Assembly: GCF_009914755.1 (NCBI RefSeq)
Contig: NC_060938.1
DNA: 64,000 nucleotides
Origin: the human T2T-CHM13v2.0 reference genome, Homo sapiens
Direction: 5' to 3' (one strand)
Below, piece by piece: positions 1,449 through 52,914 of the stretch (position 1 is the stretch's first letter; every line of letters starts with the position of its first letter). Made by a program: the position numbers and the translations under genes. Under the pieces are notes generated by a model. The model worked only from the letters and a program-made list of their open reading frames with translations, did no database searches and was not told where the DNA came from.

Positions 1449-1505
1449 ACAAGTGCTGGTAATGCTCCTGTTGGGGAAAGGGGATGAGTACAAAAATAAA
1501 TCCAA
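1449..1505 (+). pseudogene. TRAJ55: TRAJ55 pseudogene
   Basis: Degenerate RSS tgatttgga-12-gttagtg (1421-1448); KCW*CSCWGKGMSTKINP with in-frame TAA; donor gtaagt. Confidence 0.92.
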
Positions 1506-4564: not shown

Positions 4565-5081
4565 GTAAGTGGAACACAGAGATTATTGCCACAGCAACAC
4601 TTTGGGTGCCTGTCTGTTTGAGGACCTCAGCTGAGGGCAGGCATCTGGTTTTGCTTATGTCCTGCGGAGGCTGAAGAGAGGGTGGGAAGCCCTTTAGACA
4701 GTGAATACTGTGAAATAGTGAAGAGATGGGAAGGGTCGTTTGAATCCCTGACTGCTGTCCTTAAAAAAAATGGATACGTCTTCTTAGCTAAATAATAGCC
4801 TTTTTCTCTCACCCTTTTCATGATAGTAAGCAAGCTAAAACTTTAACCCTTTGTAACAAGTGGTTGCTTGAAGACATGACTAAACAGGCTAGCATAAATT
4901 CAGCCCAAAAAAAGTCTGAGTTAAGAAAACTAAATTCTATTAAAGAGGTGTCTGTTTTTCACACCCCTGGGGGACAGGGTTTGATCATCACCACATCATG
5001 AAACTGCCTGGATTTTGCTCTTCACATTTTTTGTGACATCCAGACACAGCCAGGGTGACTCCCAGGATTCCTGTGGTTGTG

Positions 5082-5137
5082 TCTGTTGGCAACAGAAGCA
5101 TTATTTGGTCAAGGGATGAAATTTACAGGAACCCCAA
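5082..5137 (+). pseudogene. Putative unnamed vestigial TRAJ relic between TRAJ53 and TRAJ52
   Basis: ggttgtg heptamer; open frame LLATEALFGQGMKFTGTP; phase-1 gtaaat at the canonical distance from FGXG. Confidence 0.65.
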
Positions 5138-5979
5138 GTAAATGTGCAAAAGCCTGCCCCTAATAGAGACCTCACTTAACCCTACCACTGTGGTCACCGG
5201 GCTGCTCTGTGAGGTCAGAACACCTCAGGTGAGACTGTGGAGTAACCAGATGCCCTGGTTTTCCTGGGTTTCAGGGGTTTTCCAGGACAAAGGTCATTCT
5301 TTGCTAAGCCCAGAATGATCCCCAGGATAGTTAATCACCGTAAGAAGGCACAGATAAAAACTTTTTTCTGTGAGCTACTACTTACATTTCACCAAATTCA
5401 AGACTGACAAAAAAACTACGTTGTGTGAAAGCTCAGTTACATGTGCCCATCATTTTTATTTCTTATGCTAGGGCATGAAGGGAAGCTCAGGAGATCCTGT
5501 TTCATGAGGCTACAGTCTAAATCTCATCTAATTCTAGTCAGTCTCCAAAAAGCTGAACACTCTCCTCTTGTCTCCTTGTAATCAATTCATTGTCATCAGA
5601 AATGTGTGACACCTCGAGGGGAGGGGAGGACGTGTCTTGAAAACTGATCAGAGAAATTGTCCTGAAAATGATGCTGTAAAATGGAAATGAGACCTTTAGA
5701 AAGAGAGATGCTGAACATGAGAAATCAGTAAGCCTCAAGACAAAAACCAGAGGAAATGGAGAGAGATGGGAGGCAGGAAGCCGGACCTCGGGGGACGCAG
5801 CAGGTCAGTGTCCCAGGACCAGAGGTGGAAATGGTCTTCCAGCCTTTGGTGGGATGAAACTGAGCCTCACAGACCCAGGCCCCTTTGGGTGAGTTTATTC
5901 TCCCCAGAATTAAAAGAGGAGGAAGTCTGCGAGCTTCAGAAGTCCCCCTAGGGTTCTTGTAAAGGCCTCCAGTGCAGTG

Positions 5980-9486: not shown

Positions 9487-9666
9487 ATCTATCTGTCTAT
9501 CTATCTATCCAGCTATCTATGTATCTATCTATCTATCATCTATCTCAGAAATAGTTGTTTTTAACAGTTGATTCTGTGCCTCACCCAAATTGTCATTAAC
9601 TAAATGCAGATGTGCTGCCACACTGATAAACTTCATTGGAAAAAAAGAAAAAACCAAACCCAGAGA
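9487..9666. repeat. Left arm of inverted repeat flanking TRAJ48, including (TATC)n
   Basis: 9547-9666 is the reverse complement of 10856-10975 with 4 mismatches. Confidence 0.9.
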
Positions 9667-10855: not shown

Positions 10856-11481
10856 TCTCTGGGTTTGGTTTTTTGTTTTTTTCCAATGAAGTTTATCAGT
10901 GTGGCAGCACATCTGCATTTAATTAATGACAATTTGGGTGAGGCACAAAATTAACTGTTAAAAACAACTATTTCTATGCAGCCATAAAAAATGATGAGTT
11001 CATGTCCTTTGTAGGGACATGGATGAAACTAGAAATCATCATTCTCAGTAAACTATCGCAAGAACAAAAAACCAAACACCGCATATTCTCACTCATAGGT
11101 GGGAATTGAACAATGAGATCACATGGACACAGGAAGGGGAACATCACACTCTGGGGACTGTTGCGGGGTGGGGGGAGTGGGGAGGGATAGCATTGGGAGA
11201 TATACCTAATGCTAAATGACGAGTTAGTGGGTGCAGCACACCAGCATGGCACATGTATACATATGTAACTAACCTGCACAATGTGCATAAGTACCCTAAA
11301 ACTTAAAGTATAATAATAAAAAAAAACAACTATTTCTGAGATAGATAAATGATAGAGAGAGGGAGATACTGGATATATATACACAGTTAATGACAATTTG
11401 GGTGAGGCACGGAATTAACTGTTAAAAACAACTATTTCTGAGATAGAGAGAAAGAGAGAGATACTGGATATATATACACAG
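10856..11481. repeat. Right arm of inverted repeat, interrupted by L1 and partly tandem-duplicated (11387-11481)
   Basis: Direct reading against the left arm; ttaatgacaatttgggtgaggcac...aacaactatttct occurs twice. Confidence 0.88.
10976..11321 (+). mobile_element. 5'-truncated L1 3' end (L1PA2/L1PA3-like)
   Basis: L1 ORF2 tail and 3'UTR (gggagggatagcattgggag...acttaaagtataataa), poly(A), 16-bp TSD aaaaacaactatttct at 10960-10975 and 11322-11337, TT/AAAA site. Confidence 0.95.
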
Positions 11482-15717: not shown

Positions 15718-15980
15718 GTAAGTTGGGGGAATGGGTCAATCTTAAAAGCTGACCTGAGTGAGCAATGGTGCTGTTCTGGGCAGTTTCTGTGGGGTTAAGA
15801 CACTGCCACTCCCAAGAGGATCTAAGTACCTGGTTTCTTTGTGCCTGAGACCCTGAGCTGGTTGGAAGTCTGTTAGTTGATGAATTCTGGCAATCTTAAG
15901 GATTAGGTCAAGAAGAAGTAGAAAATTTCACTGGTTTCTTCATTGGCTTGGCTCTGGATATATAAAAATGCTAAATATAA

Positions 15981-36965: not shown

Positions 36966-38196
36966 TAATGATAAACATCATCTCTAACCCACAGCAGAGC
37001 CTTTGTTTGGCCCCTGGGGCTCTTCTGTCAAGGTTCTGTTGTGCATCAGCAGCAGAGCTGGAATTGGGGGGAGGGTGGAGAATGTCAGCCTGTTCTATGA
37101 AATTCTTCACCTGGGATTTGAAAGTGGAAATACAAAGAATCCTGACTAATTTAAATACAAAATCATCCAAGTGTCAGAGGCAGGGGAGAGGTTTCTGCAG
37201 AGAGCTGCATAGCTGGGATCCTCAAGGCTACACACACACGCTTGGAGCAGGGATGCGGTTCACAGGATGGCAGGGCAAAGGTTGCAGAACTGAAACCTTG
37301 TACTTCCCCATCACCAAAATGACCCCAGCATGATTTCCTTTAAGGTGTCCCGAGCCCCTTCCCAAAAGACAGGCTCCCCATGTGGAGGGGCAATGACAGA
37401 GGGAAGATGGAAACTTTATGGGAAGGGCGATCTATCCCAAGGTTGTCCTTCTCCTCTTCAGGGTAGTGAAGCTCATGAGAAATATGGCTCCTGAAAATAG
37501 CCACTAAATGAAACTCTCCAACCTGGAGGTAGAGGATCAGTAAAGTCTGCAGAGGCAAAATGAGGCAGTTTATTTCAAAGAAAAGAGGTTGAGGGCAAGG
37601 TGGGAGTTAAGTCACACATCTAAATCTGGGAAAGGAAGCATTAAACAGAAGACGGAGGGGCTCGGCTCTCCACCTCCACCAGGATTCAGACCACAGGACA
37701 TGGCTAATACTGCAAGAAGGGAGTTAGGTTAGTGGTAAAACCTTTCTAATAGGTTTTTGAACAGTGAAAATGAGCTGTCAGGAGTAGTTGCCAGGGCACT
37801 TTCTCTAGAGAGTTTTTGAAAGGAGATAGACACCCTGCTATCAGAGGTGATTGGAGTGCAGCCCTGCCTCGAGGCAGGAGGAGAAATGAGAGAACCTCTT
37901 AAAGCCTCTTTCCAGCCCCCAGAGCCTGTCTCCATGAAAAAGGCCCAGGCTCATTAATGCAGAGCTGCATCCTCCAGGACACAGGGGGTTGCTGGGTTGT
38001 TAAGTTTGGAACCTTTGCCGGCTTAGTGGTTACCAAACTCCTTTTGTTCTCAAGACTTGACTTGATAAATGGGCTGGCTTTATCCCTTTAAAGCCAAAAA
38101 CACAGGTTCTGAGTGCTGTGTTGTTTGTGGTGTTGAGATGCCCAGGCTGGAGGGAGGAAGCTCTAGGGGGTTTTTGCTGAGCCCAGAAACACTGTG

Positions 38197-44132: not shown

Positions 44133-45013
44133 GTAAGTAAGAAAGAAAAGTCCAGAATAATTTTAAGCAAAATGGTGGGTAGGTTTTTCAGCAATTTCAC
44201 CTAGGAAGTGCAATGTCAAGAACTAAATTCTAAGAGCTTTCCCAGTTTGTGTTAGAACCATAATTTTTCTGCCTCACACGTCTCCCTCGCCTTCTCTGTC
44301 ACCTCAGAACAGCTCCTCCTAAGGCATGCCTTCACAATGGTACATTTGTTGGTGGCGCAGTCTTTGTGGTCAGATAAAAACTGAGCTAATTATCTGAAAT
44401 TATCTCAGGTCTCTAAGTGAGAGAGTTAACTCCTTTCAAATATTTGAAGAACTACGATGTAGACCAGGTAAGGGGTGAGTGTGGAGGCCAAATCAAAACA
44501 AGCAGGTGCAAGATGTGCCCCAACCTCCCCTCAAACATTGTTGAACAAGTGGAACTGCCCTGCAGTGGAAAGGCTGCTTTGTGAAGTATGGAACTTTTCT
44601 TCCTTAGATATCTTCATGCCAGACCCCTAAGGTTAACCATGAGATGTTGCAGAAGGCACTTCTATGCCATTTTAGCTATTAGATTGAAACACCTCTGGGC
44701 TCCCTTTCAAATCTAAATGCTAAGATCCCATGACTCAAGCCTGGAGGATTAATAGGTGAGCTCAGACTTGTTTCTTCTATTTTTACTATTTTGATAGCCA
44801 AAGAAATAATTCATCAAATTATTCATAAGCTAAAGCCTACTTGGGATTTTTACACCTAGAAGATGGTGGGGTATGATTTCCCAGTGCAGTAAATGAGAAA
44901 ACAATAGGAGACATCAAGGAGGAAAAAAAGAAGGAAGAGATAAAGGGAATGTCTTAAGGGAGGCTCAGAGGTTGAATGAAGGAAATGAGGTGATTTTGCA
45001 GAGGACAGATGTG

Positions 45014-45073
45014 GCTATCAAAGATTTTACAATTTCACCTTTGGAAAGGGATCCAAACATAATGTCACTCCAA
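45014..45073 (+). pseudogene. TRAJ19: TRAJ19 (open frame, defective RSS)
   Basis: YQRFYNFTFGKGSKHNVTP with gtaagt; nonamer-like tgattttgc only 7 bp from heptamer agatgtg. Confidence 0.92.
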
Positions 45074-52309: not shown

Positions 52310-52914
52310 GTACATGTTGACCCCATCCCACCCATGTTTTCCCCTTATCTGGTTTAAGGCTTCCATATGTATTGCGTGTTATCCTCATGGATTTCATCAT
52401 CCTTGTTTTATTATCAATGTTCTGTGAATTTAAGATTGAGCCTCCATGGACTCTTCATTTAAAAATGAAAATAGCTAATAGAAGAGTTGGAAATAACAGT
52501 AGAACTAATTCACTAGGTCAGGATGGAGAAGGGAGTAATACCCTAGACAATTAGGACAAACGTGGTTTTTCCAGAAATAGACTCACTTCCTGTTTAAAGC
52601 CTAGACTGTGGTCTCTCCCCGGGCACCCTTCACATTCCTCTAACCCTCCATATCCCAAATTTAGCTGTGGAATCTTAGACAATCTGTGACCTATGCAGCT
52701 ACAGAAATCTTTTCTTACTGAGAATATCTGCCTATTTGAACCAAAAGATCCTTGAGAATAGACAGTCTCTAATATTCCATGAAGTGTCTGATATGGTCCT
52801 TTTACAAAAGTAAATACTTGATAAATTCTTGCTTAATTGAAGTTAAACACCCAAAGAAATCAGGTTTCCAGGCCAAAGGGAAGAAGAAAATTAAGCAAAT
52901 GACACAGTACATTT

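What the first reader, a model, noticed from the sequence alone, without database searches (positions are those of the whole stretch)
5054..5143. Unnamed open-frame J-like segment with intact FGQG and phase-1 donor
ggttgtg (5075-5081) precedes 56 nt reading LLATEALFGQGMKFTGTP with no stop. The GT (gtaaat, 5138) lies exactly 11 codons + 1 nt from the Phe, as in true TRAJ. The nonamer position (ggtgactcc) is degenerate. This is the best candidate for an unnumbered TRAJ ORF that might rearrange rarely.
Basis: partly seen in the sequence, partly recalled or inferred. Interest (0 to 1): 0.7.

Follow-up and report, generated by a model that had tools for sequence, protein, structure and literature searches.

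The report
Decayed, unlisted TRAJ-like relic segment
Between the human T-cell receptor joining segments TRAJ53 and TRAJ52 lies a worn-out, unlisted copy of a joining segment that keeps its hallmark motif and splice site but has lost the signal needed for rearrangement, so it is most likely an inert evolutionary leftover.

Summary
Window 5082-5137 (+) reads LLATEALFGQGMKFTGTP without a stop. The Phe codon is at 5104, and 11 codons plus 1 nt later comes GTAAAT at 5138; GGTTGTG lies at 5075-5081.

It is more than chance. On a 40-nt J-core matrix built from the window's 52 non-pseudogene J segments it scores 15.2 bits. That is above the curated pseudogene TRAJ55 (11.1), and the next unannotated hit scores 5.6. 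The iid null expects 0.0024 such hits per window, and 4 of 300 Markov-simulated windows reach the score. Its local alignments to the J segments exceed all 300 shuffles.

It is nevertheless badly decayed:
- The recombination signal scores -1.5 to 1.6 bits, against 10.0 or more for every J with a recognisable signal.
- Framework residues Thr, Leu and Val are replaced by Met, Phe and Gly.
- The coding core without the donor scores only 3.7 bits.

It is absent from RefSeq and from IMGT's 2022 gene order.

Verdict: an ancient, unlisted TRAJ relic, which would count as an "ORF" under IMGT's rules, and very unlikely to rearrange. Orthologues and repertoire reads could not be tested here. Interest is low.

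The parts
5054..5062 (+). Position where a 12-spacer J nonamer would lie (GGTGACTCC); degenerate
   Evidence: Nonamer sub-score -4.9 or -7.4 bits; the 51 J nonamers score 0.7 to a median of 10.3. It matches 4 of 9 positions of the recalled consensus GGTTTTTGT.
5063..5074 (+). 12-nt spacer position (CAGGATTCCTGT)
   Evidence: Spacer sub-score 0.5-0.9 bits, which is uninformative.
5075..5081 (+). Heptamer-like GGTTGTG; the coding-proximal GTG is kept
   Evidence: Heptamer sub-score 5.4-5.6 bits. Only 0.35% of minus-strand positions reach it; J heptamers run from 0.7 to a median of 10.0. It is the best RSS position within the J-like distance from the donor.
5082..5137 (+). J-like coding segment, 56 nt, open in the J frame (LLATEALFGQGMKFTGTP + 1 nt)
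   Evidence: The length lies within the J range of 52-69 nt. Best local alignments are to TRAJ37 (30), TRAJ54 (25), TRAJ52 and TRAJ50 (23); 0 of 300 shuffles reach the maximum or the mean.
5104..5115 (+). FGQG codons (J motif F-G-X-G)
   Evidence: This sub-part contributes 11.2 bits of the core score.
5116..5136 (+). Framework-4 remainder, decayed: M-K-F-T-G-T-P in place of T-x-L-x-V-x-P
   Evidence: Columns 13-30 score -7.5 bits. Thr is 50 of 52, Leu 45 plus Val 6 of 52, and Val 45 plus Ile 7 of 52 among the J segments; here they are Met, Phe, Gly.
5138..5143 (+). Splice-donor-like GTAAAT in phase 1, preceded by CCAA as in most J segments
   Evidence: The last 10 columns contribute 11.5 bits. 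The +5 base is A; 51 of 52 J segments have G there, and only TRAJ11 (GTACAT) shares the A.

Best explanation
Window 5054-5143 is a vestige of a TRAJ gene segment. It is an old member of the tandem J-alpha array that lies in the array's widest gap (TRAJ53 to TRAJ52) and has been decaying without selection.

Shown:
- It keeps the F-G-X-G codons, the CCAA|GT donor at the exact J spacing and phase, the last three bases of the heptamer, and residual similarity to other J segments along its length.
- It has lost the nonamer and half the heptamer, and it carries substitutions at three near-invariant framework-4 residues plus the +5 base of the donor.

Inferred:
- Without a usable 12-RSS, RAG does not cleave it at any appreciable rate, so it contributes nothing measurable to the TCR-alpha repertoire.
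- Its open frame is a chance survival over 18 codons.
- Were it ever joined to a V segment, the transcript could probably be spliced in frame to TRAC. The resulting chain would carry FGQGMKFTGTP in place of FGxGTxLxVxP, would probably fold or pair poorly, and would be replaced by a secondary rearrangement to a downstream J.

Under IMGT's categories it would be called an ORF-type or relic J, like TRAJ19 or TRAJ55, if it were listed at all.
For: Sequence as described.

J-core matrix from 52 J segments: 15.2 bits, above curated TRAJ55 (11.1), and above TRAJ61 (5.5) and TRAJ59 (below 0) in the flank. The next unannotated hit scores 5.6. The exact iid null expects 0.0024 per window, and 4 of 300 Markov-3 windows reach the score.

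It is the only non-J match of the FGXG-N23-GTRNNT pattern: 47 matches, 0.11 expected.

Local alignment to the J segments: maximum 30, mean 15.8; 0 of 300 shuffles reach either, and among real non-J 62-mers 1 of 300 reach the maximum and 0 of 300 the mean.

It matches 13 of 16 columns that are at least 90% conserved, the same count as TRAJ55 and TRAJ51.

No close paralogue: core identity is 19-28 of 40, against a J-to-J mean of 25.3. The flanks have no homology in the window, and the stretch is single-copy in the genome, so it is old and is neither a recent duplicate nor a dispersed repeat.

It lies on the + strand in the largest of 53 inter-J gaps (3158 nt; median 947).

Decay: RSS -1.5 to 1.6 bits against 10.0 or more in J segments with a signal; the T, L, V residues are lost; the donor +5 base is A.

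RSS quality tracks use. TRAJ1, 2, 19, 59, 51, 55 and 60 were never seen, and TRAJ25, 46 and 14 barely seen, in 20 people (PMC5059964, passages). One RSS SNP abolishes TRAJ12 expression (bioRxiv 10.1101/2022.08.25.505097, passages).
Against: A gapped nhmmer profile of the J segments gives only E = 2.7 (3.2 bits), which is noise level, although TRAJ55 fares no better at E = 1.1.

Without the donor columns the core scores 3.7 bits, below two other unannotated places in the window (6.2, 5.7). The case therefore rests on FGXG plus donor at exact spacing, and the loose pattern has about a 10% chance of one hit per window (0.11 expected).

The 5' part alone is only marginal (15 of 300 shuffles).

The weak RSS-like signal is reached by 2-4% of control windows.

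No orthologue, transcript or rearrangement data could be examined. 'Does not rearrange' is inferred from the signal's weakness, not observed. The segment also lies, by analogy with mouse, inside the TEA-dependent TRAJ61-TRAJ52 recombination centre, where RAG is concentrated (PMC3005232, passages).
Confidence: 0.8

Rival explanations
1. It is a rarely used but real J segment. The GTG-ending heptamer acts as a cryptic 12-RSS inside the highly accessible 5' J-alpha recombination centre. Occasional V-J joints are spliced through GTAAAT to TRAC and appear as unassigned or mis-assigned reads in repertoire data.
For: Open frame, FGXG and a phase-1 donor. The coding-proximal GTG of the heptamer is kept, and its score is in the top 0.35% of background positions. 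One functional J (TRAJ11) also lacks G at donor +5. In mouse the TRAJ61-TRAJ52 interval is the primary RAG1-binding zone (PMC3005232, passages). Repertoire pipelines assign reads only to the 61 listed TRAJ genes (PMC5059964, passages), so use would go unnoticed.
Against: The RSS is 8-12 bits below the weakest J segments that have a signal, and those weakest ones are already unseen or nearly unseen in 20 people. The same paper states that RAG1 binding depends strongly on direct RSS recognition. The nonamer T-tract is absent. Framework-4 T/L/V are lost, so such chains should fail selection. The peptide appears in no paper of the searched library.
Confidence: 0.08
2. It is a chance resemblance: one of the roughly 20 chance FGXG-coding motifs in the window happens to have a GT-A-rich hexamer 34 nt downstream, and it never was a J segment.
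For: FGXG motifs are common (15.7 expected per window). The loose motif-plus-donor pattern has 0.11 expected hits. nhmmer gives E = 2.7. The core without the donor scores 3.7 bits. 4 of 300 simulated windows reach the matrix score. Open frame P = 0.32.
Against: Matrix score: 0.0024 (iid) to about 0.013 (Markov) expected per window. Alignment to the J segments exceeds 300 of 300 shuffles. It has the correct strand, a J-like length, a heptamer-like GTG at the right distance, CCAA before the donor, and a position in the largest gap of a regularly spaced array. The curated pseudogene TRAJ55 scores lower on the same tests.
Confidence: 0.08
3. It survives as a functional non-recombining element, for example a splice donor or exon used by germline (TEA-initiated) J-C-alpha transcripts, or a regulatory sequence, and not as a J segment.
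For: The best preserved part is the donor region (11.5 bits). TEA transcripts elongate through this interval in mouse (PMC3005232, passages).
Against: No transcript, conservation or chromatin evidence was available. RefSeq lists no exon or functional element here; the nearest is a silencer at 4585-4634 (hub table). The donor carries the rarer +5 A.
Confidence: 0.04

Closest known systems
TRAJ55 (human TRAJ pseudogene, window 1449-1505)
   Same: A decayed J in the same array. The core motif is partly kept (WGKGM...), with the same Thr-to-Met change after G-X-G, a negative middle of the core (-15.0 against -7.5 here), a preserved CCAA|GT donor, an RSS near 0 bits (-1.0), and an insignificant nhmmer hit (E = 1.1). 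It was never seen in repertoires.
   Different: TRAJ55 has an in-frame stop and Trp in place of Phe, and it is named and curated. The candidate has an open frame and an intact FGXG, scores higher on the core matrix (15.2 against 11.1), and is unnamed.
TRAJ19 (IMGT 'ORF' J, window end 45073)
   Same: An open frame with FGXG and a phase-1 donor, altered framework-4 residues (FGKGSKHNVTP) and no recognisable RSS (-11.1 bits). It was not found in any of 20 individuals. It is the closest model for how the candidate would be classified and would behave.
   Different: TRAJ19's coding core is much better kept (30-nt core 20.4 bits against 3.7) and its donor is the canonical GTAAGT.
TRAJ51 (pseudogene) and TRAJ61 / psi-J-alpha (ORF)
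   Same: Non-functional members of the same array. TRAJ51 has an RSS of -3.6 bits, and TRAJ61's core scores only 5.5 bits on the J matrix.
   Different: TRAJ51 keeps a good coding core (27.4 bits) but has a stop and a GC 'donor'. TRAJ61 is described as taking part in the deltaRec-psiJalpha deletion, while the candidate's signal is nearly gone.
Cryptic recombination signal sequences (heptamer-only CAC sites)
   Same: The candidate's signal is reduced to a heptamer whose coding-proximal bases are kept while the nonamer is lost. That is the anatomy of a cryptic RSS (recalled general knowledge; scores).
   Different: Here the cryptic signal sits in front of a J-derived exon with a splice donor in phase, so a rare cleavage could give a spliceable V-J-C transcript.

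Membership tests
TRAJ gene segment (functional J-GENE) | 12-spacer recombination signal (nonamer, 12 nt, heptamer) abutting the 5' end | tested here: not met
   The RSS matrix from 51 J segments gives -1.5 bits (nonamer -7.4, spacer 0.5, heptamer 5.4). J segments with a signal score 10.0-30.5 leave-one-out. 4.3% of 2063 control windows do as well; with the J19-contaminated matrix the values are 1.6 bits and 2.0%.
TRAJ gene segment (functional J-GENE) | F/W-G-X-G motif | tested here: met
   FGQG at 5104-5115. Alone it is not distinctive: 70 matches against 15.7 expected.
TRAJ gene segment (functional J-GENE) | Framework-4 pattern after the motif (T-x-L/V-x-V/I-x-P) | tested here: not met
   Met, Phe and Gly stand where 50 of 52 J segments have Thr, 51 of 52 have Leu/Val and 52 of 52 have Val/Ile. 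The final Pro is kept (42 of 52).
TRAJ gene segment (functional J-GENE) | Splice donor 11 codons + 1 nt after Phe (phase 1 into TRAC) | tested here: met
   GT at 5138 with the exact spacing. The hexamer GTAAAT has A at +5, shared by 1 of 52 J segments. Its strength was not measured because no splice-site model was available.
TRAJ gene segment (functional J-GENE) | Open reading frame in the J frame | tested here: met
   18 codons without a stop; chance probability 0.32.
TRAJ gene segment (functional J-GENE) | Found rearranged to TRAV and spliced to TRAC in T cells | not testable with these tools
   No repertoire data were on hand. The peptide is in no searched paper. Supplements and raw reads were not searched.
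TRAJ relic / pseudogene of the J-alpha array | Sequence homology to J segments beyond chance, in array orientation and position | tested here: met
   Core matrix 15.2 bits (0.0024 to about 0.013 expected per window). Alignment test: 0 of 300 shuffles. On the + strand, in the largest inter-J gap. Caveat: nhmmer E = 2.7.
TRAJ relic / pseudogene of the J-alpha array | Orthologous J (functional or relic) at the same place in other mammals | not testable with these tools
   No mammalian genome other than the window's own is held. Published cattle, sheep and mouse TRAJ lists name nothing between TRAJ53 and TRAJ52.
Listed IMGT/RefSeq gene | Has a name in the curated gene tables | tested here: not met
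   The hub's RefSeq table has no row between TRAJ53 and TRAJ52. IMGT's 2022 gene-order table gives TRAJ53 (81) then TRAJ52 (82) (PMC8945572). The live IMGT and OGRDB databases could not be consulted.

The most novel reading that the evidence does not exclude
The human J-alpha array holds at least three unlisted J-derived relics, one in each of its three widest gaps in this window. The one at 5082-5137 is still occasionally cleaved by RAG as a cryptic signal inside the primary recombination centre. That would give rare in-frame, spliceable TCR-alpha transcripts with a non-canonical framework 4 (FGQGMKFTGTP), which current 61-gene references discard or mis-assign.
Probability: 0.07. Interest if true: 0.45.

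Novelty: new member of a known kind. Interest (0 to 1): 0.2.

Why it matters
If it is only a relic, as I judge, it matters little. It would add one unlisted vestige to the 61-member TRAJ list, help explain why the TRAJ53-TRAJ52 gap is three times the usual spacing, and illustrate birth-and-death decay in an array otherwise conserved one-to-one among human, mouse and cattle. On the practical side, germline references and annotation tools that rely on RSS detection or profile searches will not see it, and it is a possible sink for rare unassignable reads. Specialists would take notice only if deep repertoire or junction data showed real use, or if orthologues showed a working J at this place in other mammals.

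Tried and rejected
- nhmmer profile of 52 aligned J segments with flanks. It recovers 52 J segments at E <= 2.1e-11 and TRAJ51 at 5.7e-7, but not the candidate (E = 2.7) or TRAJ55 (E = 1.1). It is therefore not useful for relics.
- Alternative RSS registers around 5030-5112. None is better than J start 5082; TCCTGTG at 5069-5075 scores about -15.
- The nonamer-like ATTTTTTGT at 5026-5034 (8.2 bits). It lies 40 nt from the heptamer, which is neither a 12 nor a 23 spacing, and equally good nonamers occur 52 times on the minus strand. I treat it as chance.
- Recent-duplicate hypothesis. There is no close paralogue among the J segments and no flank homology, so I rejected it.
- Dispersed-repeat hypothesis. 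4900-5300 is single-copy in the genome, so I rejected it.
- Specific kinship with the relic at 37241, which shares G-M-x-F-T-G. The alignment score is reached by 27 of 500 shuffles, and 11 of 18 middle matches is common in the window, so I rejected it. A CpG transition from ACG to ATG could explain the recurrent Thr-to-Met change, but that is inference only.
- The first RSS matrix included a spurious auto-located 'RSS' for TRAJ19. I redid it without TRAJ19 and give both values.
- Literature. Searches for new, novel or unannotated TRAJ genes, for TRAJ52-1, TRAJ53-1, TRAJ62, '62 TRAJ' and '63 TRAJ', for the peptide, and for the 1994 locus paper found no description of this segment. '62 TRAJ' in cattle is the extra TRAJ8-2. 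The original 1994 human locus paper is not in the library and was not seen.

Full report
**The observation.** GGTTGTG occupies 5075-5081. The next 56 nt (5082-5137) read LLATEALFGQGMKFTGTP in the frame that leaves one base over. The Phe codon is at 5104-5106, and GT follows at 5138 (GTAAAT), exactly 11 codons plus 1 nt after the start of the Phe codon. laid the segment beside the 36 J segments named in the hub's table. The layout (nonamer position, 12 nt, heptamer position, coding part, CCAA|GT) is the same, and the 56-nt length falls within the 52-69 nt range of the array.

**Is it more than chance?** I located all 54 J segments of the window: 36 from the table and 18 more found by scanning. 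I named those 18 TRAJ19-TRAJ2 by order, which is an inference, because the table says only that 18 more genes are not shown.

- A 40-column matrix (Phe codon to donor +6), built from the 52 non-pseudogene J segments, gives the candidate 15.2 bits.
- Leave-one-out scores of the 52 J segments are 22.5 or more. TRAJ51 scores 27.4 and TRAJ55 11.1.
- The next unannotated position in either strand scores 5.6 and the one after that -1.6.
- An exact iid null gives 1.9e-8 per position, or 0.0024 expected per window on both strands.
- Third-order Markov simulations are less generous: 4 of 300 windows reach 15.2.
- An earlier matrix from 34 J segments gave 19.5 bits, against 6.7 for the next hit.
- The tool's own pattern search (TTYGG-N4-GG-N23-GTRNNT) finds 47 places, all on the + strand: 46 at J segments plus this one, with 0.11 expected.
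- Local alignment gives an independent test that also uses the 5' part. The 62 nt of J plus donor align best to TRAJ37 (score 30), then TRAJ54, TRAJ52 and TRAJ50, with a mean of 15.8 over the 54 J segments. None of 300 shuffles reaches either value. Among 300 real non-J 62-mers from the window, 1 reaches the maximum and 0 reach the mean.

**Results against the reading.**

- FGXG alone means nothing: 70 matches against 15.7 expected.
- The open frame has P = 0.32 by chance.
- A gapped nhmmer profile scores the candidate at E = 2.7, although the curated TRAJ55 does no better at E = 1.1.
- Without the donor columns the core scores 3.7 bits, below two other unannotated places (6.2 and 5.7).
- The score is carried by FGXG (11.2 bits) and the CCAAGTAAAT end (11.5 bits), while the middle is negative (-7.5).
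- The 5' part alone is marginal: 15 of 300 shuffles.

I put the probability that this is J-derived at close to 0.9 and chance at under 0.1.

**Context.**

- The 401 nt around the segment are single-copy in the whole genome.
- The surrounding 1 kb has no other homology within the window.
- Core identity to the J segments is 19-28 of 40, against a J-to-J mean of 25.3, SD 2.8. It is therefore an old, separate member of the array and is neither a recent duplicate nor a dispersed repeat.
- It lies on the J strand in the largest of the 53 inter-J gaps (3158 nt; median 947).
- Scanning 10 kb upstream and 8 kb downstream of the window found only the known TRAJ61-56 and TRAJ1. On the same matrix TRAJ61 scores 5.5 and TRAJ59 below 0, so the candidate's core is better kept than three named TRAJ genes.

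**State of decay.**

- RSS: a 28-column matrix from the 51 J segments with a recognisable signal gives -1.5 bits (nonamer -7.4, spacer 0.5, heptamer 5.4). The comparison values are 10.0-30.5 for those J segments (leave-one-out), -1.0 for TRAJ55, -3.6 for TRAJ51 and -11.1 for TRAJ19. 4.3% of 2063 control windows do as well.
- A first version of this matrix included a spurious TRAJ19 signal. It gave 1.6 bits and 2.0%.
- Only the coding-proximal GTG of the heptamer is convincing: the heptamer score is in the top 0.35% of background positions.
- Of 16 core columns that are at least 90% conserved, 13 match, the same count as TRAJ55 and TRAJ51. The three misses turn Thr (50 of 52 J segments) into Met, Val/Ile (52 of 52) into Gly, and the donor +5 G (51 of 52) into A. 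In addition, Leu/Val (51 of 52) is Phe.

**How it most likely works (or does not).** Published repertoire data calibrate the RSS scale.

- In 20 healthy people TRAJ1, 2, 19 and 59 and the pseudogenes TRAJ51, 55 and 60 were never seen. TRAJ25 and TRAJ61 were barely seen, and TRAJ14 and TRAJ46 were poorly used (PMC5059964, passages read).
- On my matrix the lowest-scoring J segments with a signal are TRAJ46 (10.0), TRAJ2 (10.1) and TRAJ25 (10.6). The candidate lies 11-12 bits lower still.
- A single SNP in the RSS of TRAJ12 is associated with loss of its expression (bioRxiv 10.1101/2022.08.25.505097, passages read).

I therefore infer that the segment is essentially never cleaved. If it were, splicing in phase to TRAC is plausible, because TRAJ11 works with GTACAT. 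The chain would lack the framework-4 core residues, however. All of these functional statements are inferences; none was observed.

**Comparison with what is known.**

- RefSeq (hub table) names nothing between TRAJ53 and TRAJ52.
- IMGT's published human gene order lists TRAJ53 (position 81) and then TRAJ52 (82), and counts 61 TRAJ genes (PMC8945572, passages and table read).
- IMGT's human/cattle/sheep comparison has one TRAJ52 and one TRAJ53 per species and no extra gene there (PMC7824213, passages and table).
- A sheep study counts 61 TRAJ genes (PMC4574546, passages).
- The cattle study counts 62. Its human-mouse-cattle tree shows one-to-one-to-one groups, with TRAJ8-2 as the only extra (PMC4289303, passages, supplementary file MOESM6).
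- The 45-donor expressed-repertoire study reports new TRAJ alleles; no new TRAJ gene appeared in the passages I saw.
- Searches for novel, new or unannotated TRAJ genes, extra TRAJ numbers and the peptide found nothing. Searches were uninformative.
- The 1994 locus paper, the live IMGT and OGRDB databases, and papers' supplementary read tables were not seen.

The closest analogues are TRAJ55 (same pattern of decay, including Thr to Met) and TRAJ19 (open frame, FGXG, altered framework 4, no RSS, never used). [quoted passage not shown]

**Verdict.** It is a new, degenerate member of a known kind. Interest is low (0.2). The boldest reading not excluded is rare cryptic use inside the recombination centre, together with two further unlisted relics in the next-largest gaps of the array (see noticed in passing). 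I give rare use about 7%.

Noticed in passing
window 10876-10966 (+); copies at 9547-9666 (-) and 11387-11439 (+): This is a better preserved unlisted J-like pseudo-segment than the finding itself. It has a 12-spacer RSS-like signal (TTTTTTTCC / 12 nt / CAGTGTG, 10876-10903) scoring 12.8 bits, within the range of J segments with a working-grade signal. It is followed by 63 nt ending FG*GTKLTVKN: the 30-nt core scores 27.9 bits, there is a TGA at the X of FGXG, and there is no splice donor. nhmmer gives E = 0.0028. An inverted copy (96.7% over 120 nt, with the same RSS on the minus strand at 9619-9646) and a partial direct copy exist. These three places are the only matches in the whole genome. 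The two full copies flank TRAJ48 as an inverted repeat. An RSS-bearing decoy, with a second one in inverted orientation, might take part in non-productive or inversional rearrangements; this was not tested.
   Followed up: partly
window 37190-37280 (+): A third possible J relic, in the TRAJ27-TRAJ26 gap. The RSS-like signal (GGTTTCTGC / 12 nt / AGCTGGG) scores 13.1 bits, from a good nonamer and a heptamer lacking GTG. At a J-like distance it is followed by LGAGMRFTGW (30-nt core only 1.8 bits), with no GT at the J spacing. Its resemblance to the finding's GM-x-FTG is not beyond chance: 27 of 500 shuffles.
   Followed up: partly
window gaps after 2821, 10305 and 36082: The three largest of the 53 inter-J gaps (3158, 2297 and 2114 nt; median 947) are exactly the three that contain the J-like relics. 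The only non-J positions with an RSS score of 12 bits or more in the window (two on the + strand, one on the - strand) are those of the two relics above. This fits the idea that wide gaps mark dead members of the array.
   Followed up: partly
window 15724-15763 (+): Just 3' of TRAJ43 (end 15717) the frame reads WGNGSILKADL followed by GTGAGC. The core matrix gives 5.6 bits, the second-best unannotated hit, but this is within the simulated null (95th percentile 7.3).
   Followed up: no
window about 44999-45073 (TRAJ19): No recognisable 12-RSS lies upstream of TRAJ19 (best -10.4 to -11.1 bits), although its coding core and donor are good. This agrees with its absence from repertoires in 20 people.
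   Followed up: no
window 5026-5034 (+): The nonamer-like ATTTTTTGT (8.2 bits) lies 40 nt upstream of the candidate's heptamer, which is neither a 12 nor a 23 spacing. Equally good nonamers occur 52 times on the minus strand, so it is probably chance. It could also be the old nonamer displaced by an insertion.
   Followed up: partly
window 52310-52315 (TRAJ11 donor): TRAJ11, listed as functional, has the donor GTACAT. It is the only one of the 52 J segments without G at +5.
   Followed up: no
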